Part shown: positions 2,932-24,897 of the stretch, piece by piece
How the letters are laid out: every line of letters begins with the position of its first letter
How positions within the stretch are numbered: the first letter of the stretch is position 1
UHGV virus genome: UHGV-0209072
Strand: one strand, 5' to 3'
Origin: a virus
DNA: 37,335 bases
The notes under the pieces: generated by a model
Database searches by the model: none
The model's input: only the letters and a program-made list of their open reading frames with translations
What the model was told of the DNA's origin: nothing
Translations under genes and position numbers: made by a program

Positions 2932-2960
2932 ATCCAACCTAAAAAGGTTGGATTTTTTTA
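2932..2960 (+). terminator. Rho-independent terminator
   Basis: The hairpin AATCCAACC-taaaaa-GGTTGGATT is followed by TTTTTTT. Confidence 0.65.
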
Positions 2961-3034
2961 TGGACCATACAGGACTCGAACCTGTGACCGAACGGTTATG
3001 AGCCGTTTGCTCTAACCAACTGAGCTAATGGTCC
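2961..3034 (-). tRNA. tRNA with CAU anticodon (Met elongator or Ile2/lysidine type)
   Basis: The reverse complement folds into a perfect cloverleaf: acceptor GGACCAU/AUGGUCC, D-arm GCUC-AGUUGGUUA-GAGC, anticodon arm AACGG-CUCAUAA-CCGUU, T-arm ACAGG-UUCGAGU-CCUGU, discriminator A. CCA is not encoded. Confidence 0.9.
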
Positions 3035-3039
3035 TGAAA

Positions 3040-3068
3040 AGAGCCGCCTTGGGAACGGCGACTCGAGA
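3040..3068 (-). terminator. Probable terminator of the late/lysis operon
   Basis: On the - strand, the hairpin GAGTCGCC-gttcccaa-GGCGGCTC is followed by TTTTC. Confidence 0.45.
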
Positions 3069-3108
3069 GAAATTTAAATAAGTGTATCCTTATTTTATAT
3101 TAAAGCTA

Positions 3109-4410
3109 TTAATAATTCAATGTTTGACCAGGATAAATCAAGTTAGGGTTAGCTAATCCGTTTAATGCAGCCAAGGCTTGATAAGTAGTGCCGAGTTTGG
3201 CTGCAATGCTAGATAAATTATCCCCATATTGGACTGTGTAAACATTACTTGTTGCCGATCCATTTACCTTCAAAACTTGACCAGGATAAATAAGATTTGG
3301 ATTAGCCAATCCATTTAATGCCGCCAACGTTTGATAGTCTGTTCCGTATTGATAAGCAATACTTGATAATGTTTCGCCGTATTGTACCACATGAATCGCT
3401 TCTGGTTGTTTATCAGGGACGACTGTTGCGTCTGGCAATAGTTCAATATCACCTTTACTAATCCATGACAAGATACCTTCAAGCAATACTCTGCTTCCAG
3501 TTACTTCTTGCACTTTATAGCTGTTTCCTTTTACCCATTGTGGAATGGCTTCACCAGTTGCCCAAGCATCAACATTAAATTTCACTTTGACTGTATCGCC
3601 AACTTTAACATCGGAACTTGGCGTATTTTCTACTTCTTTACCTTCCTCAATAGCTGGTGTGTTTGTTGCTGGTTGGTTATTCTTTGTATAACCATTATCA
3701 GTAATACCTGTTAAATCTACGTTACCATCTAAACCACCTGCAATATAAGCGGATGTGAATTGCCAAATGCCAATACCATCCATGCTTGGGAAATAAGCAT
3801 ACAATGGATATGGTGACACACCATCGATAGGATACGCAGCAATCCATAAAGAGTTAGGAAACTCTTTGATGATTTGTTGATAGTTTACATGATTTAGTGT
3901 AAATGGCTTATAGCTGTAATACATTGGAGTATAGCCAGCCTGTTTGATTCTGCGCATACCGTACAAAATTGTCTCTGTATTTGCTGCTTTTTCGGCATCT
4001 GAACTTACATATCCTCCATATCCATCTGGAACACTAGCCAACGCTCCATGTTCAAAATCTAATGCAACGATGGAATTTTTAGGCGTTTGAATACGTGGCA
4101 AGAAATAATCCATCGTTGTTTTCGCAATGTCCATGTTTCCCCAAGTGTCATACCAAATATAGGTATGCGCACGTTTACCTTGGGCAATAGCACTTGCTAC
4201 TTGCGTTTTATATGTGTATTGTTCATAAATACCGCTAGCATTGTAGCCACCAATCTGGGCAATAGCGAATTTATCATGTGCATAGCCAAAACGACCTTGT
4301 TCGCCTTGATAAATCGCCCAGTCCACACCTTGGTCACCTTTTGCAGCAAATACATTTAAAGGCATAAAAAATAGAGCGACAAGCGCTCCAACTAAAATTT
4401 TCTTTTTCAT
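3109..4410 (-). CDS. Endolysin: Sec signal peptide + GH25 muramidase + SH3-like module + 2 LysM repeats
   Basis: N-terminus [22 protein letters not shown]|AKG looks like a cleavable signal peptide. A GH25-like motif GVDWAIYQG is present. Two C-terminal LysM repeats ([29 protein letters not shown]... and [28 protein letters not shown]...) are also present. Confidence 0.85.
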
Positions 4411-4937: not shown

Positions 4938-6428
4938 TTATGTTTCCGGGAAAGCATCTGCAGTGTACCAACTACCACAAACATAATGATTCCCTTCTCT
5001 GTCACTACCAAACCTAATTCCCTTCACTCCTTCCTCATATAATGCTCCATAATTACCTTGAGGATAGGTATATTGCACAGTTGTTAATGCGGTATTCCAA
5101 TATCCTGCTCTCATTTCTTGATCAATCATAAATCCTTTAGGAATTTTAAAAATTTGGACCATGTTTGGATTTAATTTTTCTACATCCACCACATTAACTC
5201 GCAAATAAGCATCGACCTTATTTCCCTTACGAACTAAAAGAATATTGGTTTCTGCTCCAAAAGCACTTCTGTATGCAGCTTCTACTTCATCCAGTCCTGC
5301 TTTTTTGTAAATAAACGTTTCATCTTTTAAAGCAACTTCTTTTCCATTTACTAAAGGAATTTCAGAAAACTCTTTAATCCCACCTATACGCTGGGGTTCA
5401 GTTAAATTAACAACACTATCTGTAGTAGCCAAAACTTTGAACGGACTATTTTGAGAAGAATTAGGAGAAGTCGTTCTAAATGCAATTAAAGGTGTTGTTA
5501 ACGAATTTATTCTAATTTCTTGATACATAGCTCCCGCGGTGCCTGCAATGGCATGTTGATAAACATATAGAGCAGAATATTTAAATTCAGGTGGCAAATC
5601 TGCTTTGTCAGTCATTGTTCCCGCAACTGTAGCATCTAGATAATAAAAACCAGCATAACCTGATAATTCTTTAAATGAAGTTACTCCCTTTGGCAAAGGT
5701 AGACCTGAACCATCATCATTAGTTAACTTTTTATTTTGAATGTCAAGGTTTTCCGTTTTACTTAAAAATCTATTATCAGCTTCCTGTTTCGTATAGAAGT
5801 TTCCCTCTTTAAACTTTTCAAGTGCTGCATCAACTTCATCTGTTACTGACTTCCCAATGGCTGAAATGCGACCTTCTGCATCCACCAATATATCTGTTAT
5901 TTGTTTTTTTAGCGTATTTAAATCTACCTTGATCGCTTCAATACGTTTTTCAACATCATCATAATCAGTATTCATTTTATTTAGTGCAGCTTGATAAGCT
6001 TCATTTAAAGCTTTAACTAATTTGTTGTATTCAGTAATTATAGTTTTTGCTTCTTCTGCATCAATGTCAGCATTTCCATAAACCGTAATCTCAAAATCAT
6101 CAGTAGATTCTCTCTTGTCATTCTTCATGAAAGAAAAATATGCTAGTTCATATGAACCAGCTACAGCAAATGCCATATTGGGGAAAGTATAGGTAAATTC
6201 CCCGTTTTTTCCATTTGTGATCTCTATTCCATCAGAATCAAAAACTTTTGTTCTTTCTTCATGAGTTACGCCTTCAAAAGTAGCTACCCAGTCAGTCAAG
6301 TCAAAGGGAGCTCCATCTTTAAATATTTGAACCCTCATTGAAAAACTTTCTCCGTCTCCGACTCGACCATAAACAATTGGTCGCCCGATAGAATTTTTTG
6401 AAAGATCAAATCTTAATAAATCGCTCAT
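4938..6428 (-). CDS. Tail fibre / upper baseplate protein (BppU-like N-terminal domain), putative receptor-binding protein
   Basis: N-terminus MSDLLRFDLSKNSIGRPIVYGRVGDGESFSMRVQIF... resembles the BppU N-domain. A central coiled coil is present. It is the last tail gene before the lysis cassette. Confidence 0.55.
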   Translation of the reverse strand: MSDLLRFDLSKNSIGRPIVYGRVGDGESFSMRVQIFKDGAPFDLTDWVATFEGVTHEERTKVFDSDGIEITNGKNGEFTYTFPNMAFAVAGSYELAYFSFMKNDKRESTDDFEITVYGNADIDAEEAKTIITEYNKLVKALNEAYQAALNKMNTDYDDVEKRIEAIKVDLNTLKKQITDILVDAEGRISAIGKSVTDEVDAALEKFKEGNFYTKQEADNRFLSKTENLDIQNKKLTNDDGSGLPLPKGVTSFKELSGYAGFYYLDATVAGTMTDKADLPPEFKYSALYVYQHAIAGTAGAMYQEIRINSLTTPLIAFRTTSPNSSQNSPFKVLATTDSVVNLTEPQRIGGIKEFSEIPLVNGKEVALKDETFIYKKAGLDEVEAAYRSAFGAETNILLVRKGNKVDAYLRVNVVDVEKLNPNMVQIFKIPKGFMIDQEMRAGYWNTALTTVQYTYPQGNYGALYEEGVKGIRFGSDREGNHYVCGSWYTADAFPET

Positions 6429-20434: not shown

Positions 20435-21956
20435 TCTTATTCACTTCAGGCCTTCGTGGTTCTGGCTTATCATTTGTTTCTTCCTTAATACGTTTTAGTT
20501 CGACATCGGGATTGACACCCGTTACTGTAGACAATATTTCAAATAGTGTTTCATCTGAAACTTGTCCAACTAATTGACTAGCTAATGAAACAATCTCGTT
20601 ATCTGATTTAGGAACATTCGCAGTAAATATAATATTCGTATTATTAATATCATTGTAAGCTGTTGAATCGTTCCCTTTTATTTGCCAAATATTAATAGCT
20701 AGGCGCAATCGTCTCATCAAACCTTTTTCAAATAAGCGCTGTTGCATAACCCGCCGATTATCCGCAGCCATTAACTTGTATTTCATACTCTCACCTGATT
20801 GTGTACCACTGAAATTGGCATCCAATGTATCTGGTGTAAAAGTAAATCGTAAAATATCATTAACCAATCTTTTCTTATAAGTCTCTGCACCTTCTGAGTC
20901 ATATTCTTTTATGAGATATTTTGCATCAGGTTCTGATCCGTTTGGATTTGGATTATCATCTAAAATCATTATTCGTGCTTTTTTGAAAGCTAAAGAAACA
21001 GCTAACCGTGAATTAGGAACAATATTACCATCTTCATCTAAGTCATTTTGAGCAGTCCCTGTGTATGGATTTCCTTTGATAAGCAAAATAGCGTCCATTG
21101 TGTCCTGCTGATAATTAGCTAACTCAGATTGAGACAAATCATAAGCATCAATTGAATCTAAAACAGGTTCGTATGCACCTGTACGGTCTTCATTATTTGC
21201 GAATTCATTAATAGGTACGCCATTAAACGCATAATCTTCAAAGTCTAATAATGTCAATCCCTTTTTATTCTGGTTGTCATTGACATAGATGTATAACATG
21301 TCAGATGTATAAACGTTTATAAAATCCTTACGCACCCCATCGCCATAATCTATTGAATAATAATAAACACCAAATAAAGAATTACTGTCAGTCGTATCAT
21401 CATATACAATGAATGTCTGCTCTGGGTTTAATTTAACTAGTTTTACAAACGCTTGTTCATCTTGTAAAGCAATTGTTTCCAACTCGTAGGCTCTGCCATA
21501 GATTGACAAATCGGTTTTGATAAGTACGTTGTGATAGGCTTCGTTGTTTTGCTTATTGAAGTCATCGATTTTTTCTTGCAGTTCATCATTTTCATTTTTG
21601 TACTGGACCGGCTGTCCCAACATATAGCCTTGCTCAAAAATAGTGATATATCTAGCAAAATCACTTGCTATTCTATTGTCGGCAGCGTATTCATCAGTTT
21701 TTGGAGGACGATATTTGATGTTATTATCTGCTAAGTAATAGCGTTTAAGCTCTTTTAAACGTGGCACTTGTTCAGCAAGATGTCGATTAACAAATCTTTT
21801 TAGTTGAGTAATCCATGTTTCACTATCAAATTCTAGGCTTTCAAAATCTTCCTGTGCCATTCTAAAAACCGCATTCGCATTTTTATGATACCTGTGATTT
21901 CTTAAAAACGTTACTTCATTCTTTTTATTCACTTTTTCATCCCTTTCTTTATCCAA
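20373..21956 (-). CDS. Portal protein
   Basis: 527 aa directly downstream of terL, overlapping it by 8 nt. Acidic C-terminus. Confidence 0.85.
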   Translation of the reverse strand: MDKERDEKVNKKNEVTFLRNHRYHKNANAVFRMAQEDFESLEFDSETWITQLKRFVNRHLAEQVPRLKELKRYYLADNNIKYRPPKTDEYAADNRIASDFARYITIFEQGYMLGQPVQYKNENDELQEKIDDFNKQNNEAYHNVLIKTDLSIYGRAYELETIALQDEQAFVKLVKLNPEQTFIVYDDTTDSNSLFGVYYYSIDYGDGVRKDFINVYTSDMLYIYVNDNQNKKGLTLLDFEDYAFNGVPINEFANNEDRTGAYEPVLDSIDAYDLSQSELANYQQDTMDAILLIKGNPYTGTAQNDLDEDGNIVPNSRLAVSLAFKKARIMILDDNPNPNGSEPDAKYLIKEYDSEGAETYKKRLVNDILRFTFTPDTLDANFSGTQSGESMKYKLMAADNRRVMQQRLFEKGLMRRLRLAINIWQIKGNDSTAYNDINNTNIIFTANVPKSDNEIVSLASQLVGQVSDETLFEILSTVTGVNPDVELKRIKEETNDKPEPRRPEVNKNEMGNDDDEREAAKGINEDE

Positions 21957-23241
21957 AGAAGAACTTGGCAGCGTCCATACGTTCCTCTAATGATTGTGGA
22001 TTCTTCAAGCTTAAGGTCCTAAGGAGACTGGCCGCGCTGTCTGGTGCATCGTCATGTTCTGCATTTTCTGTATAGTCCAAAATTTCGGCAATGTACTCTT
22101 TATCTGTATCTTCTAACCAAATAATCAAGTGCCAGTACTTACGCAAATAAGTAGATATTTTAATAAATTTATTCATAGATTCATGATATTCAGTAACAAA
22201 CTGACCGCACTCACGTAAATTCTTAGCTAAGTACCCTTTGTCTCCGTTCGTTTCTGTGTGGAAAGTTCCTGCCTGGTAGTGTTGATGCAATCGCAAAATT
22301 TCAGGCAAGCAATCATCCACATGTTTCTGCCACTTCCTACCATATCCAATAATTGTTCCATCTTTTTGTTCTTTGAAGATGGTTAAGGCTGTGCTGTCAT
22401 CGCCACCATAAGCCGCGTCGATGTGTGCTACACCGTTATAAATAAGATTAATACTGTCGGTATAGGTTGGTGCAGTAAATAGCGATTCACTGTCAGCAAT
22501 ATGTTTTAGCTCATAGTTTGCCGCAAATAATGATGGTGTCATTGCTTGTTGCAATGCCTGACGTTGTTCTTTGTCAATTAATCCTGTTTCGTAACAATCG
22601 AATTTCTTGACGTTAGGCATTTTAGAGATTGCGTCTTCTTTGTGCCATGGTGTACCTGTGTTAATAAAACGACCACCGCGATTTTTAACGTTCTGCAATT
22701 CTTGATACTGAAGTTTCGTTCTCTCTCGTTCAGCTCGACTGACTCGGTCTTTAATGTTAACAATGTCATCAGTAATAACGATGTCCGCATGTTTACCAGT
22801 CAGAGAAGCGTATATTCCCATACCGAGTAATTGAGAGGTTCCTCGGCTAGATGTTTTTAAGTTGGTATCTATTTCCGTGGTGGTCTCTTTCAAAAGCACT
22901 AATTCAACGCCATATAATGCAAATACAAGCGTTTTAAAGTATTTGCTAGATAAAACCTTAGCCACTTGTAAAATAATCTCTACGACGTCAGTATCAGTCT
23001 TACGTAAGAAGATAATGTTTTTATTTGGAAAAAGAACCATCAACAATGCAATTGCAATCGCCAAGGTAGTTGTTTTAAATGAGCCACGATGAGCCAATAA
23101 CGTTTGATCGTCTTTCTCAAACAAAAAAGACTTTAACCAATCATTGTGCAATTCTCCTAAATCGTTAAACCCCACTAAATTTCCAAAAATTACCGGGTTC
23201 GTTTTGATTAGGTTCAAATATTTTCGCTTTTTAGGGCTCAT
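21949..23241 (-). CDS. terL: Terminase large subunit
   Basis: 430 aa with a Walker-A-like motif (AHRGSFKTT) in the ATPase N-domain. A C-terminal nuclease-domain acidic residue pattern is present. Follows terS with a 4-nt overlap. Confidence 0.85.
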   Translation of the reverse strand: MSPKKRKYLNLIKTNPVIFGNLVGFNDLGELHNDWLKSFLFEKDDQTLLAHRGSFKTTTLAIAIALLMVLFPNKNIIFLRKTDTDVVEIILQVAKVLSSKYFKTLVFALYGVELVLLKETTTEIDTNLKTSSRGTSQLLGMGIYASLTGKHADIVITDDIVNIKDRVSRAERERTKLQYQELQNVKNRGGRFINTGTPWHKEDAISKMPNVKKFDCYETGLIDKEQRQALQQAMTPSLFAANYELKHIADSESLFTAPTYTDSINLIYNGVAHIDAAYGGDDSTALTIFKEQKDGTIIGYGRKWQKHVDDCLPEILRLHQHYQAGTFHTETNGDKGYLAKNLRECGQFVTEYHESMNKFIKISTYLRKYWHLIIWLEDTDKEYIAEILDYTENAEHDDAPDSAASLLRTLSLKNPQSLEERMDAAKFFFG

Positions 23242-23687
23242 GTAGAATCATCCTCGAAAAACTGCTCGATTTCGACTGCTGCATCGGAAATATTAAGCGA
23301 TCCTGAAACCTCGGTTTCTCTTCGATCTCTCCACTCATCAGGCTTTCTGTTCTTAAGCCAGAAAATTGCGGATGTAGGGTTGGGCGCCACTTGTTTCGTT
23401 ACTTTTTTGGTTACTTCCATGCCCGCTTCTGTTAATTCTTTTGTAACTTCGGTGTATTCATAACCCACCGCACTTTTAAACAGTGCATTTTCAACTTGAC
23501 GATCTACAACTTCTTTTCCTCTTTTGAGGGCGGAAGAAATGGAAGAAAACCTCTTTTTCCAATCGGTAAATGTCCGTTCGGATACTCCAACATTTTGTGC
23601 GATTTGCTTATCGACGAGGCCATCTCGTGCCCACCCTTCGATTTTAATTAACCCTTCGTCAGTCAGCCACTCTGTGTACTTTGCCAT
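23238..23687 (-). CDS. terS: Terminase small subunit
   Basis: 149 aa with an N-terminal HTH (QIAQNVGVSERTFTDWKKRF). RBS AGGAGG. Immediately upstream of terL. Confidence 0.7.
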   Translation of the reverse strand: MAKYTEWLTDEGLIKIEGWARDGLVDKQIAQNVGVSERTFTDWKKRFSSISSALKRGKEVVDRQVENALFKSAVGYEYTEVTKELTEAGMEVTKKVTKQVAPNPTSAIFWLKNRKPDEWRDRRETEVSGSLNISDAAVEIEQFFEDDST

Positions 23688-23807
23688 GACCTCACCTCCT
23701 ATGTAATTTTATGTATAAAAAGAGACACCCAGCAAGTGGATGCCTCTCGTGAAGGATAGAAACATCTATTGACGTTTCCTAATTTATTTAAGTAGCTATG
23801 CTACCTA

Positions 23808-23880
23808 TTGGCGTGACAGGATTCGAACCCGCATCTTATCTCACACGTAATCAGTTGCATTACCACAATGCTACACGCCA
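23808..23880 (-). ncRNA. tRNA-like element (degenerate tRNA / tRNA pseudogene remnant)
   Basis: On the - strand: a 7-bp acceptor stem (UGGCGUG/CACGCCA), D-arm GCAU-UGUGGUA-AUGC, and a canonical T-loop GGUUCGAAUCC. No anticodon stem can be paired. Confidence 0.35.
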
Positions 23881-24480
23881 AACCAGAAGGAGCGACCTTC
23901 TAGCAATTGCTAATAAATCAAATTAACCTTTACACACTCTCGTCAGAATGTTTTCCCTTCAGGATGTAGCTTTCGCAGACTTTCACGGCTAAAATGATTA
24001 TGTCACTGGCAAGGATTTGCACCTTGTAAGGTCTATATTCCACCACAGTGACCAATCAATCAAACACCAGCAAAAACAATTGATTAAGTTTATCCTAAAC
24101 GTACCTAGCTGCTACTCTATGAGTTTAGGAATTGCTCTCGTGCGTAAGCAGCTGCCGCAGAGATCTGGTTAATGTTCTTATCGTCATATGATGGGATAGA
24201 GCAATATACCTAACCTCGACTAGTATGAATCAGGTAGTTACTACTGCATCCCTAGCAACTATTTGTGTCCCTTGCAAACTTGTAGAAAAAAGAGGAGGTT
24301 ATTCACCTCACTTCATTTTATTGAGAACGTAAGTCTGCAAGTGACCATCGAAAGTCAAAGTGAACGATGACTAAACGAGAAAGTGTGTAATGTGTCCATT
24401 TCTTTGACTTTCGATATTACTATATTAGCATTCAAATTCGTATAAAAACCGCCAACTTTACGCCAAAAAACCGCCAAAAA

Positions 24481-24897
24481 TTATTTATATGCAATTATTT
24501 TGCCATTGCGGTAAGCTTCCGCGAATTCAATCAAAGCTTCTGATTTCATGCGTTGAATACTTCTTTCGGAATAGCCAACTTCTCTAGCAATCTTGTAATT
24601 AGAGTAATGATCCTGCACGCAAAAACTGTAGTGAAGAATTTGACGACTTATAATGCTTAGTGACATCAAAGCCGTTAGGATTGCGTCACGCTCTACTTCG
24701 ACATCAATCATCTGGATCAACGCATCTTCTGCTTTGTTGCCATGCTTTATACCTTTTGGCATGTCTGTAATGATTGGTGATCGAACATCTACTAAGGAAC
24801 GACCAGCTATTCGGTCCAAACGTCTAAAATTTTTCAACACGGCTCTCGCATTGGCTCTAGTCTGACTGAAATCAACTTCTTTTAACAATTGAATCAA
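24481..24897 (-). CDS. arpU: ArpU-family late transcriptional regulator
   Basis: 138 aa placed between the early/replication genes and the packaging genes. A sigma-70 region-4-like C-terminus is present. Starts with TTG, with an AAAAGGAG RBS. Confidence 0.65.
   Translation of the reverse strand: MIQLLKEVDFSQTRANARAVLKNFRRLDRIAGRSLVDVRSPIITDMPKGIKHGNKAEDALIQMIDVEVERDAILTALMSLSIISRQILHYSFCVQDHYSNYKIAREVGYSERSIQRMKSEALIEFAEAYRNGKIIAYK

What the first reader, a model, noticed from the sequence alone, without database searches (positions are those of the whole stretch)
23688..24480. Roughly 780-bp non-coding island between arpU and terS with a tRNA-like remnant, a tight hairpin and a long-range 14-bp inverted repeat
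Phage genomes are densely coding, yet this stretch has no ORF of 60 aa or longer on either strand. It contains a - strand tRNA-like sequence (23808-23880). That element has a 7-bp acceptor stem, a D-arm and a canonical GGTTCGAATCC T-loop, but no pairable anticodon stem. A GAAGG-agcga-CCTTC hairpin lies at 23886-23902. A perfect inverted repeat ATCGAAAGTCAAAG / CTTTGACTTTCGAT lies at 24347-24360 and 24402-24415, with a 41-nt spacer. Candidate roles are an ArpU-dependent late promoter plus pac/cos recognition structure, a processed sRNA or tRNA-like decoy, or a decayed tRNA/attachment relic.
Basis: seen in the sequence. Interest (0 to 1): 0.55.

Follow-up and report, generated by a model that had tools for sequence, protein, structure and literature searches.

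The report
Non-coding late-operon leader with tRNA-likes
The 0.8-kb gap between the late-gene regulator and the DNA-packaging genes of this Enterococcus faecalis prophage is most likely the transcribed leader of the late operon: it holds the regulator's binding boxes and promoter, two leader hairpins, a very conserved non-coding cassette sitting where sister phages carry the cage-forming ROOL RNA, and two tRNA-like elements that probably act as RNA-cutting signals.

Summary
Window 23707-24480 is the longest stretch with no ORF of 60 aa or more (774 nt; the next is 285).

All genes here are on the - strand. Reading 5'->3' on that strand, the island holds:
- three TTGGCGK ArpU boxes and an extended -10;
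- a ~210-nt non-coding cassette whose centre is ~99% identical in 97 E. faecalis phage loci and matches no Rfam family;
- a decayed tRNA-Leu-like minihelix;
- a tRNA-Arg(ACG)-like element with a defective anticodon arm;
- three hairpins, then terS.

In sister phages the same slot holds a full-length ROOL RNA.

In phiFL2A (98% identical here) the published terS "start site", a G 118 bp upstream of the ATG, lies 3 nt after this tRNA's discriminator base. It is therefore more likely a processing end than a promoter.

A pac/cos role is unlikely, because the cassette precedes at least three kinds of packaging module. The cassette's own function and fold remain unproven: there is too little sequence diversity for covariation, and its folding z-score is weak.

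The parts
24449..24477 (-). Three 7-nt direct repeats (TTGGCGG, TTGGCGT, TTGGCGG; 11-nt spacing) directly after the arpU stop: the ArpU binding boxes.
   Evidence: Found at 24471-24477, 24460-24466 and 24449-24455. All three read TTGGCGG in phiFL2A. The paper describes three 7-nt repeats immediately distal to arpU that are needed for ArpU binding and terS expression. Equating them with TTGGCGG is my inference, because the paper's supplement is not held.
24419..24430 (-). Candidate late promoter -10: extended -10 TGCTAATAT (24430..24422), overlapping TATAGT (24424..24419). Predicted start is about 24415-24411.
   Evidence: The consensus scan lists TTTATA-16-TATAGT on the - strand. TGnTAnTAT is kept in the second leader type as TGTTACTAT. 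The last ArpU box overlaps the -35 position. The start site is inferred, not mapped.
24347..24415 (-). Leader stem-loop 1.
   Evidence: Perfect 14-bp inverted repeat. In a 10-sequence alignment of two leader types, 14 pairs are 87.9% paired against 39-58% when slid, and 4 pairs change on both sides. phiFL2B keeps the basal 8-10 bp despite a 30-nt deletion.
24267..24345 (-). Leader stem-loop 2: long imperfect stem (24345..24331 with 24281..24267). Its tip is the terminator-like hairpin GAGGU-GAAUA-ACCUC (24309..24295), followed by CUCUUUUUU.
   Evidence: Inverted repeat I3, 15 nt, 87% complementary. Terminator-like site. The leader 24415..24267 folds with z = -5.05 and -5.25. This ~216-nt leader is shared even by phages that lack the cassette, such as phiFL1A and phiEf11.
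24186..24266 (-). Cassette, 5' variable domain. It exists as two alleles about 20% apart.
   Evidence: Within allele 2 the helix UUAYGC/GCRUAR shows U-A, U.G and C-G states (L095, L129, L111), and CCUG/CAGG changes to CCUU/AAGG. The two helices are mutually exclusive, so the fold is not settled.
24053..24185 (-). Cassette, ultraconserved centre. It contains two hairpins whose loops carry GCAGCUGCUUACG and GCAGCUAGGUACG, and a 9-bp 3' hairpin (AAUCAAUUG...UGAUUGAUU) that ends directly at the next tRNA-like element.
   Evidence: Mean 98.8% identity (minimum 94%) over 97 loci, against 88.9% for the arpU 3' half and 92.6% for the leader. Single-base indels in several variants exclude coding. No Rfam family matches at E<=10. 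Direct repeat D2. The centre is always followed by GTCACTGTG.
24001..24052 (-). Decayed tRNA-Leu-like minihelix: 7-bp acceptor stem GUCACUG/CAGUGAC, a D-arm remnant, no anticodon arm, T-arm CAAGG-UGCAAAU-CCUUG, discriminator A.
   Evidence: Read from the sequence. Relatives keep a canonical D-arm (GCGGAAUAGGUAGACGC) and, in L024, a canonical T-arm (CAAGGUUCGAAUCCUUG). They carry unrelated inserts of roughly 100-250 nt where the anticodon arm should be. The acceptor stem covaries in L061 (AUUGCUG/CAGCGAU). ARAGORN finds it only at a lowered threshold.
23882..24000 (-). Spacer with small hairpins.
   Evidence: The hairpin is conserved while the upstream spacer is replaced in phiFL3A/B. The spacer is absent in variants where the cassette is fused directly to the tRNA, such as L030 and L048.
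23808..23880 (-). tRNA-Arg(ACG)-like element with intact acceptor, D and T arms but a defective anticodon arm. No CCA is encoded.
   Evidence: ARAGORN. Rfam 42.8 bits with the anticodon arm skipped. It belongs to a family sharing one acceptor and T-arm scaffold, with Arg-like (ACG, UCG, UUG), Lys(UUU) and Glu(UUC) versions. A further decayed version in ROOL-bearing loci (e.g. L061) is not reported as a tRNA by ARAGORN or by Rfam at its gathering score.
23791..23805 (-). Probable processed 5' end of terS mRNA (G 23805), which is the first base of the hairpin GGUAGC-AUA-GCUACU.
   Evidence: phiFL2A 5'-RACE placed the end at a G 118 bp upstream of the terS ATG. That is L001:3177, 3 nt after discriminator A3174, equivalent to window 23805. 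The hairpin is part of the MFE structure. No sigma-70-like promoter is found upstream of it.
23717..23779 (-). Two further 5'-UTR hairpins (23779..23758 and 23746..23722). The second is followed by U5 (23721..23717) and looks like an intrinsic terminator about 30 nt before the terS start.
   Evidence: tail 23805..23688 has MFE -36.3 kcal/mol and z = -4.64. One search gives z = -5.63 for 23806..23688. SD GGAGG at 23699..23695, ATG at 23687.

Best explanation
The island is the transcribed and processed 5' leader of the ArpU-dependent late (packaging) operon. It doubles as a cargo bay for non-coding RNAs.

**Proposed sequence of events.**
1. ArpU binds the three TTGGCGK boxes and activates an extended -10 promoter. 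Transcription starts at about 24415-24411 (inferred).
2. The transcript opens with two stable stem-loops. I infer that they protect the 5' end.
3. Next comes a ~210-nt cassette with an ultraconserved centre. It occupies exactly the position where sister phages carry ROOL RNA.
4. The cassette ends in a 3' hairpin that directly abuts a decayed tRNA-Leu-like minihelix. After a ~120-nt spacer there is a CCA-less tRNA-Arg-like element.
5. I propose that these tRNA-like elements are cut by RNase P on their 5' side and RNase Z on their 3' side. This would release a hairpin-capped ncRNA (leader plus cassette, about 360 nt) and leave terS mRNA with a 5' end at G23805, at the foot of a hairpin. The logic is that of mitochondrial tRNA punctuation or MALAT1/mascRNA.

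**What is shown and what is inferred.**
- Shown elsewhere by experiment (phiFL2A): ArpU binds the repeat region, terS expression depends on the repeats, and the terS mRNA 5' end lies at -118.
- Shown here: the anatomy, the conservation pattern, leader-stem covariation, ROOL in the same slot in sister phages, and independence from terminase type.
- Inferred: the true start site, cleavage by RNase P and RNase Z, stability of the released RNA, and any function of the cassette. My best guess is a late-expressed stable ncRNA serving the same unknown need as ROOL.
For: **Boxes and promoter.**
- Three boxes at 11-nt spacing lie directly after the arpU stop.
- The C-terminal 45 residues of ArpU, including the part the paper links to repeat recognition, are identical to phiFL2A.
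- The published EMSA and reporter data cover this region, which is 97.7% identical to phiFL2A.
- Chimeras placing foreign repeat blocks in front of the phiFL2A intergenic region were activated only by the cognate regulator. This puts the regulated promoter next to the boxes.

**The -118 end is not a promoter.**
- It lies about 650 nt from the boxes.
- No promoter-like hexamers precede it.
- It falls 3 nt after the discriminator of a CCA-less tRNA and on the first base of a hairpin.
- The RACE kit used does not separate primary from processed ends.

**Leader stem-loop 1** is kept through changes on both sides.

**The cassette.**
- It is non-coding (indels).
- It is the most conserved segment of the locus.
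- It is all-or-none across loci.
- It is always directly followed by a tRNA-like 5' end.
- It is found behind ArpU- and RinA-family regulators and ahead of HTH-terS, Terminase_2 terS or HNH modules.

**ROOL in the same slot.** A full-length ROOL (263 bits) sits between the same leader end (CTACAGGTTTG) and the same Leu-like element in L061, L064, L065 and L066. ROOL and GOLLD are known to sit in prophages next to tRNAs, and co-transcription has been suggested.
Against: - No transcript data exist for this prophage. The start site, the cleavages and the stability of the released RNA are all inferred.
- The cassette alone folds no better than shuffles (z = -0.8). The striking z = -6.5 for the whole gap comes from the leader and the tail.
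- The centre is too conserved to test any helix, and the two candidate helices in the variable domain exclude each other.
- The cassette is confined to E. faecalis phages. Recent spread by recombination could account for part of its conservation.
- Terminator-like hairpins lie inside the proposed transcript, at 24309..24295 and 23746..23722. The paper saw no read-through from an upstream Pcad promoter, so read-through from the ArpU promoter needs an explanation I cannot supply.
- The paper's staphylococcal example also has boxes just after the regulator gene and a mapped start only 28 nt before terS. Ltr proteins may therefore act at a distance.
- The RACE end could also be a reverse-transcriptase stop at the tRNA structure. 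That would still not be a promoter, but it would not be a cleavage either.
Confidence: 0.6

Rival explanations
1. The published reading holds. The ArpU-regulated terS promoter starts transcription at the G 118 bp upstream of terS, with ArpU acting from 650 bp away by looping or some other mechanism. The upstream part (leader, cassette, tRNA) is then a separate ncRNA/tRNA transcription unit or is silent.
For: 5'-RACE gave a single end at -118. The paper's staphylococcal phage also has boxes far from the mapped start. Terminator-like hairpins lie between the boxes and terS.
Against: No -10 or -35 match precedes 23805 (the sequence at -12..-7 is GTCACG). The end coincides to within 3 nt with a tRNA 3' end and with the foot of a hairpin. 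An extended -10 sits at the normal distance from the last ArpU box and is kept in a second leader type. The RACE method cannot tell primary from processed ends.
Confidence: 0.15
2. The only functional RNA is the tRNA. It would be a working or nuclease-resistant tRNA supplied late in infection, for codon supply or to counter host anticodon nucleases. The cassette and the Leu-like element would be decaying remnants of an old tRNA array, carried along by recombination.
For: The slot almost always holds one tRNA, and its identity is swapped between phages: Arg, Lys, Glu, Gln, Asn, Asp, Trp. Several are good tRNAs (58-70 bits). The Leu-like element is clearly a decayed tRNA. From general knowledge, Lys/Glu/Gln, Arg and Asn/Asp tRNAs are the usual targets of anticodon nucleases.
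Against: The window's element has U14, A27.A43, G30.G40 and U37, and its anticodon arm is rejected by the covariance model. That makes a poor decoder. A decaying remnant would not be the most conserved segment of the locus (98.8%), nor be kept intact in front of three different tRNAs and behind two regulator families. The cassette shows no tRNA-like features.
Confidence: 0.15
3. The conserved block or the inverted repeat is a DNA-level packaging signal (pac or cos) recognised by the terminase encoded just downstream.
For: It lies immediately upstream of terS, where pac and cos sites often are. It contains palindromic motifs such as GCAGCTGC.
Against: The same block precedes an HTH-type terS (window), Terminase_2-type terS (L103, L104) and an HNH gene (L121). 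It is absent from phiFL1A and phiEf11, which share only the first 216 nt of the gap (ArpU boxes and leader). The inverted repeat's arms change together while keeping complementarity, with 41-55 nt between them, which suits an RNA stem rather than a protein operator.
Confidence: 0.04
4. The gap encodes one or more small proteins of fewer than 60 aa.
For: Mechanical ORFs of 20-51 aa exist on both strands, for example 24017..24172 (+), 51 aa.
Against: None has a start codon with a properly spaced Shine-Dalgarno sequence (read). Relatives carry 1-2-nt indels, a 30-nt deletion, large inserts of roughly 150-250 nt and segment replacements inside every candidate.
Confidence: 0.03

Closest known systems
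ROOL RNA (Rfam RF03087), including the E. faecalis ROOL whose octameric cage has been solved by cryo-EM
   Same: Sister phages carry a full-length ROOL in the same slot: after the ArpU leader, before the same tRNA-Leu-like element, and co-oriented with the late genes. Both are prophage-borne, non-coding and adjacent to tRNAs.
   Different: There is no covariance-model hit at E<=10 and no blastn similarity. The window cassette is about 210 nt (about 360 nt with its leader) against 579 nt. It has no covariation-supported fold and no evidence of self-assembly. It is a positional analogue, not a member.
GOLLD RNA
   Same: A large phage or prophage ncRNA found next to or around tRNAs, with expression that rises during lysis.
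   Different: No Rfam hit. The window cassette is much smaller.
ArpU/RinA (Ltr) dependent late promoter of phiFL2A (Quiles-Puchalt et al. 2013, PMC3753634)
   Same: Same phage group. The region is 97.7% identical, the repeats and the ArpU C-terminus are the same, and the regulator-repeats-terS layout is the same.
   Different: The paper places the start site at -118 and does not mention the tRNA, the cassette or the leader hairpins. My reading moves the promoter next to the boxes and treats -118 as a processing end.
tRNA punctuation and tRNA-like 3'-end formation (mitochondrial polycistrons; MALAT1/mascRNA), from general knowledge
   Same: tRNA-shaped elements that need not decode, placed between an ncRNA and the next RNA so that RNase P and RNase Z define the ends.
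   Different: Those are eukaryotic or organellar systems. Cleavage has not been shown here. The Rfam mascRNA hit to the L024 relative is noise (12.6 bits, E = 9).
Lambda pR'-6S RNA-tR' with Q antitermination; HK022 put RNA (general knowledge)
   Same: A late promoter is followed within about 110 nt by a terminator-like hairpin. Further terminator-like structures precede the first late gene. Read-through is seen only when the late regulator is present.
   Different: ArpU has been described only as an activator that binds upstream repeats. No pause site or antitermination assay exists, and the leader hairpin is a weak terminator (5 bp).

Membership tests
tRNA (Rfam RF00005) | Covariance-model score at or above the gathering threshold (29 bits) | tested here: met
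   42.8 bits at 23880..23808 (-). ARAGORN calls tRNA-Arg(ACG).
tRNA (Rfam RF00005) | 7-bp acceptor stem, 4-bp D stem, 5-bp T stem with a GTTCGAATC loop | tested here: met
   Acceptor UGGCGUG/CACGCCA, D stem GCAU/AUGC, T arm GCGGG-UUCGAAU-CCUGU with two G.U pairs. The D loop has U instead of A at position 14.
tRNA (Rfam RF00005) | 5-bp anticodon stem with a 7-nt loop (U33, purine 37) | tested here: not met
   ACUGA/UGAGA gives 3 of 5 pairs, and position 37 is U. Infernal replaces the whole arm by a local insert. The commonest relative repairs one mismatch (U30.G40).
tRNA (Rfam RF00005) | Aminoacylation and use in translation | not testable with these tools
   Needs acylation-sensitive tRNA sequencing or Northern blots.
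ROOL RNA (RF03087) | Covariance-model match (gathering score 99.1 bits) to the ~580-nt multi-junction fold | tested here: not met
   No hit even at E<=10 on 23600-24600. The same library gives 263 bits for L061.
ROOL RNA (RF03087) | Prophage location next to tRNA genes | tested here: met
   This is context only and does not define membership.
GOLLD RNA | Covariance-model match to the conserved 3' domain | tested here: not met
   No hit at E<=10.
Ltr (ArpU-type) late promoter region | ArpU-family regulator gene immediately upstream | tested here: met
   TIGR01637, 130 bits. 85% identical to phiFL2A ArpU.
Ltr (ArpU-type) late promoter region | Direct 7-nt repeats immediately distal to the regulator's stop codon | tested here: met
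   Three TTGGCGK repeats at 24477..24449, matching the description in PMC3753634.
Ltr (ArpU-type) late promoter region | ArpU binding and ArpU-dependent terS transcription | not testable with these tools
   Shown for phiFL2A in the literature, not for this prophage.
pac/cos packaging site | Sequence linked to one cognate terminase type | tested here: not met
   The same cassette lies upstream of three unrelated packaging modules.
pac/cos packaging site | Virion DNA ends map to the site | not testable with these tools
   Needs end mapping of virion DNA.
Group I intron or tmRNA (considered for the Leu-like element with inserts in relatives) | Rfam match to an intron core or tmRNA, or an ARAGORN tmRNA call | tested here: not met
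   No such Rfam match to L024. ARAGORN's tmRNA search of the window gap and of VEsP-1 found nothing.

The most novel reading that the evidence does not exclude
The ~210-nt ultraconserved cassette would be a new class of phage ncRNA that fills the same biological role as ROOL. It might assemble through its palindromic loops (GCAGCUGC and UAGCAGCUA). It would be made as part of the late-operon leader and released by tRNA-like punctuation. ArpU-started transcription would be terminator-resistant in a Q-like manner, which would explain why it crosses the terminator-like hairpins that stop read-through from an upstream promoter.
Probability: 0.15. Interest if true: 0.8.

Novelty: new variant of a known kind. 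Interest (0 to 1): 0.58.

Why it matters
ROOL and GOLLD are striking cage-forming phage RNAs with no known function.

- **A defined expression context.** In E. faecalis temperate phages ROOL sits in a fixed slot: the leader of the ArpU or RinA late operon, directly before a tRNA-like element. That gives it a known regulator, timing and probable processing route.
- **A natural swap experiment.** The same slot holds ROOL, the window's unrelated cassette, or nothing, in otherwise near-isogenic phages. phiFL2A already has a deletion and complementation system.
- **A revised late-promoter map.** The mapped late 'start site' of phiFL2A appears to be a tRNA-processing end. This changes the picture of the late promoter in a model for phage-mediated gene transfer.
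- **An open mechanistic question.** It is not clear how late transcription passes the terminator-like hairpins in the leader.

Tried and rejected
**Rfam searches.**
- Whole window at gathering thresholds, and the gap at E<=10: only the tRNA matched.
- No ROOL, GOLLD, riboswitch, ribozyme, T-box or known enterococcal sRNA was found.

**Search for remote homologues of the cassette.**
- blastn against 50,697 phage records found Enterococcus phages only.
- A pattern scan of GTDB species representatives gave 0 hits.
- IMG/VR gave 46 contigs and JGI metagenomes gave 14. All are the same E. faecalis phage variants.
- nhmmer against all fetched loci found no weak hits beyond the shared leader end.
- ArpU-anchored loci in other species (E. 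casseliflavus, E. pallens, E. songbeiensis) lack the cassette.
- As a result, covariation could not be tested for the conserved centre.

**Folding.**
- RNAalifold and single-sequence MFE folds of the cassette disagree between alleles.
- Only local hairpins are consistent between them.
- The closing helix AAGUUUG/UAAACUU competes with leader stem 2.

**Other ideas checked.**
- *Similarity of the cassette to ROOL:* none.
- *Antisense targets of the cassette elsewhere in the window:* three 12-mers against 0.5 expected, none convincing.
- *Small ORFs:* rejected because of indels in relatives.
- *pac/cos:* rejected because the cassette is linked to several terminase types.
- *Group I intron or tmRNA in the Leu-like element of relatives:* no support.

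**Literature.**
- No paper in the library contains the cassette or box sequences.
- The phiFL genome paper and the supplement of PMC3753634 are not held.
Full report
**1. Setting.** Every gene around the finding is on the - strand. An ArpU-family regulator lies at 24897..24481 (TIGR01637, 130 bits). The gap follows. Then comes the terS orthologue at 23687..23238 and terL at 23241..21949. The window is an Enterococcus faecalis temperate phage of the phiFL (Phifelvirus) group. The gap is 97.7% identical to phiFL2A and 85-95% identical to phiFL2B, VEsP-1, IME197 and phiFL3A/B. phiFL1A-C and phiEf11 share only its first 216 nt.

**2.
- Window 23707-24480 is the longest stretch with no ORF of 60 aa or more on either strand: 774 nt, against 285 nt for the next.
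- ARAGORN calls a tRNA-Arg(ACG) at 23881..23807. Rfam's tRNA model gives 42.8 bits, above the gathering score of 29, but it treats the whole anticodon arm as a local insert. By eye that stem has 3 of 5 pairs.
- The small hairpin and the perfect 14-bp inverted repeat are at the stated coordinates.

**3. Anatomy on the transcribed (- strand), 5'->3'.**
- **(a) ArpU boxes.** Three 7-nt direct repeats TTGGCGG / TTGGCGT / TTGGCGG lie at 24477..24449 with 11-nt spacing, starting 4 nt after the arpU stop.
- **(b) Promoter.** An extended -10, TGCTAATAT (24430..24422), overlaps the scan's TATAGT. The last box sits over the -35 position. A second leader type keeps TGTTACTAT at the same place.
- **(c) Leader stem-loop 1, 24415..24347.** It begins at the predicted start site.
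- **(d) Leader stem-loop 2, 24345..24267.** Its tip is a weak terminator-like hairpin followed by a U-run. The leader folds far better than shuffles (z = -5.1 and -5.3).
- **(e) Cassette, 24266..24053.** It has a variable 5' domain and an ultraconserved centre, and ends in a 9-bp hairpin.
- **(f) tRNA-Leu-like minihelix, 24052..24001.** It has a 7-bp acceptor stem, a D-arm remnant, no anticodon arm and a T-arm.
- **(g) Spacer, 24000..23882.**
- **(h) tRNA-Arg-like element, 23880..23808.** No CCA is encoded.
- **(i) Tail.** Three hairpins (z = -4.6 and -5.6). The last looks like an intrinsic terminator (stem 23746..23722, then U5). The terS Shine-Dalgarno and ATG follow.

**4. What experiments on phiFL2A already say.** Quiles-Puchalt et al. 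2013 (PMC3753634) reported the following.
- phiFL2A ArpU is required for late-gene expression and for making phage particles.
- ArpU binds a ~100-bp fragment holding three 7-nt direct repeats 'immediately distal' to arpU.
- Replacing the repeats abolishes ArpU-dependent terS-blaZ expression.
- Foreign repeat blocks fused to the rest of the phiFL2A intergenic region transfer control to the cognate regulator.
- 5'-RACE, with a kit that does not distinguish primary from processed ends, gave one end at a G 118 bp upstream of the terS ATG.
- No read-through from an upstream Pcad promoter was seen, from which the authors inferred a terminator in the intergenic region.

The paper never mentions a tRNA. 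In phiFL2A that G is L001:3177. It is 3 nt after the discriminator A of the tRNA-like element and is the first base of the hairpin GGUAGC-AUA-GCUACU. The window equivalent is G23805.

No promoter-like hexamers precede it, and it lies about 650 nt from the ArpU boxes. From general knowledge of Firmicutes, CCA-less tRNA precursors are cut by RNase Z at the discriminator, and the 5'-monophosphate product is trimmed by RNase J1 until a structure stops it. That would give exactly this end. A reverse-transcriptase stop at the tRNA is an alternative, and it too is not a promoter. My conclusion (inference, about 0.75) is that late transcription starts next to the boxes and runs through the whole island.

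**5. The inverted repeat is an RNA stem.** I aligned window-type leaders with a second leader type found in tRNA-Trp- and ROOL-bearing phages.
- Of 14 pairs, 87.9% of cells are paired, against 39-58% when the partner is slid by 1-3 columns.
- Four pairs change on both sides, for example U-A/C-G to A-U/U-A.
- This is essentially one divergence event between two lineages, so the support is real but thin.
- phiFL2B keeps the basal 8-10 bp after a 30-nt deletion.
- A stable stem-loop at the very 5' end is a classical RNA stabiliser in Gram-positive bacteria (general knowledge).

**6. The slot is a cargo bay.** In 80 IMG/VR contigs retrieved through ArpU alone, the DNA downstream of arpU is a mosaic non-coding island. 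The gap to the next ORF of 80 aa or more is typically 200-2000 nt.
- It nearly always holds one tRNA, and the identity is swapped between phages: Arg ACG/UCG, Asn, Glu, Lys, Trp, Gln, Asp.
- 31 contigs carry the window's cassette, 4 carry ROOL, 2 carry the Listeria-type sRNA rli28, and 43 carry none of these.
- ROOL in L061 is full length (263 bits against a gathering score of 99.1). It lies between the same leader end (…UUUUUUCUACAGGUUUG) and the same Leu-like element as the window's cassette. The two are therefore positional alternatives.
- E. faecalis ROOL is a known RNA that forms an octameric cage. ROOL and GOLLD are known to sit in prophages next to tRNAs, and their function is unknown.

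**7. What can be said about the cassette.**
- *It is non-coding.* Relatives carry 1-2-nt indels at several positions.
- *Its centre is the most conserved part of the locus.* Block 24185..24053 averages 98.8% identity over 97 loci (minimum 94%). The figures for the 3' half of arpU and for the leader are 88.9% and 92.6%.
- *It is all-or-none.* nhmmer finds no weak copies.
- *It is always directly followed by the 5' strand of a tRNA-like acceptor stem* (33 of 33 distinct contexts with a recognisable 3' hairpin).
- *It is independent of both regulator and packaging type.* It occurs behind three divergent ArpU types and a RinA-family regulator (TIGR01636). It occurs ahead of an HTH-type terS, Terminase_2-type terS and an HNH gene. 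This argues against a pac/cos site.
- *It matches no Rfam family at E<=10* and shares no similarity with ROOL.

The limits are as follows.
- The cassette alone folds no better than shuffles (z = -0.8). Cassette plus Leu-like element plus spacer gives z = -2.7 on the - strand and -0.6 on the + strand.
- For comparison, the genuine ROOL of L061 gives -3.4 overall, and its thirds range from +0.3 to -3.2. A weak z is therefore not disqualifying, but it is not support either.
- The whole-gap z of -6.5 comes from the leader and the tail.
- The variable 5' domain has two alleles. One helix shows the series U-A, U.G, C-G and another shows G-C to U-A, but the two helices exclude each other.
- No homologue exists outside E. 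faecalis phages in any collection searched, so covariation cannot be tested in the centre.
- The two central hairpin loops carry a repeated motif, GCAGCUGCUUACG and GCAGCUAGGUACG, with self-complementary cores. That is suggestive of loop-loop pairing, but the match is at chance level statistically.

**8. The tRNA-like elements.**
- *One evolving scaffold.* The Arg-like element belongs to a family with the same acceptor stem and T-arm. Its versions read as Arg ACG, UCG or UUG (all with the odd arm), as proper Lys(UUU) and Glu(UUC) tRNAs (about 58 bits), and as a further decayed form in ROOL-bearing loci (e.g. L061) that ARAGORN and Rfam at its gathering score do not report as a tRNA.
- *The window's copy is a poor decoder.* It has U14, A27.A43, G30.G40 and U37. 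Its acceptor and T half, which is the substrate for RNase P, RNase Z and the CCA-adding enzyme, is intact.
- *The Leu-like element is a more decayed relic.* Relatives keep a canonical tRNA-Leu-type D-arm and carry unrelated inserts of roughly 100-250 nt in place of the anticodon arm. Neither Rfam nor ARAGORN identifies these inserts as an intron or a tmRNA.
An RNA released by RNase P would need such a 3' cap.

**9. Mechanism I commit to (confidence about 0.6).** The island is an ArpU-activated late leader. It carries an ncRNA cargo and is cut at tRNA-like punctuation. This yields a hairpin-capped ncRNA and a terS mRNA that begins at a hairpin.

The rivals are the published promoter at -118 (0.15), 'only the tRNA matters and the rest is a relic' (0.15), a pac/cos site (0.04) and small ORFs (0.03).

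One point remains unexplained. Terminator-like hairpins lie inside the proposed transcript, and the paper saw no read-through from Pcad. Either they are leaky and the ArpU promoter is strong, or ArpU-started polymerase is terminator-resistant.

**10. Novelty.**
- The boxes, the promoter region and the presence of phage tRNAs are known kinds of feature.
- ROOL in E. faecalis is known.
- As far as I could find, three things are not described: the tRNA-like punctuation of the phiFL2A-type late leader, the coincidence of the mapped start site with the tRNA 3' end, the fixed ROOL slot behind ArpU, and the unrelated ultraconserved cassette that alternates with ROOL.
- I rate the feature a new variant of a known kind, namely phage tRNA-associated ncRNA cargo. 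Interest is moderate to high. It is limited by the absence of transcript data and of a supported fold.

Noticed in passing
L061:3810-4388 (also L064, L065, L066): A full-length ROOL RNA (RF03087, 263 bits) lies directly downstream of the ArpU leader and upstream of a tRNA-Leu-like element. This is the same slot as the window's cassette, and it gives ROOL a defined late-operon context in E. faecalis phages.
   Followed up: partly
L024:~3830-4100; L002:~2935-3140; L027 and L061:4395-4690: In relatives the tRNA-Leu-like element has canonical acceptor and D arms (and a canonical T loop in L024), but carries mutually unrelated inserts of roughly 100-250 nt where the anticodon arm should be. Rfam gives no group I intron or tmRNA match for L024, and ARAGORN gives no tmRNA call for VEsP-1 (L002). 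What these inserts are is unexplained.
   Followed up: partly
loci L009-L088, about 200-900 nt downstream of arpU: The single tRNA in this slot changes identity between otherwise similar phages (Arg, Lys, Glu, Gln, Asn, Asp, Trp). The Lys(UUU) and Glu(UUC) versions differ by two substitutions on one scaffold. From memory, this set resembles the usual targets of anticodon nucleases, which hints at an anti-defence role.
   Followed up: no
window 23717-23746 and 24295-24309 (- strand): Terminator-like hairpins lie inside the leader, one of them about 30 nt before the terS start. phiFL3A/B and IME197 have a perfect terminator after the tRNA (GACTGCAC...GTGCAGTC followed by a T-run). How ArpU-dependent transcription reaches terS through these hairpins is unexplained. 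Antitermination is possible.
   Followed up: partly
L084:4320-4499, L087:4159-4338, L091:10778-10957 (-); RatA at L084:4543-4629 (-) and L091:10643-10730: Some sister phages carry a Listeria-type rli28 sRNA (143-148 bits) and a RatA-like antitoxin RNA in the same non-coding island.
   Followed up: no
window 2961-3034 (- strand): A high-scoring tRNA-Met (73 bits) lies about 75 nt downstream of the endolysin-like gene (3109..4410) near one end of the prophage. It may be phage-borne or part of the attachment site.
   Followed up: no
window 24100-24112 and 24143-24155; L108 (reverse strand) about 4960-5000: The two central hairpin loops of the cassette share the motif GCAGCU-NNN-UACG and have self-complementary cores (GCAGCUGC, UAGCAGCUA). 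Loci of the RinA type have their own direct repeats (GGGAATTT, twice) just after the regulator gene, followed by TGGTAAATT.
   Followed up: no
L014, L018, L032, L049, L068 and others: about 75-380 and 450-1050 nt downstream of arpU: Phages of the tRNA-Trp type have about 300 nt before and about 600 nt after the tRNA with no long ORF (none of 80 aa or more) and no Rfam match. These stretches may hold further unclassified RNAs.
   Followed up: no
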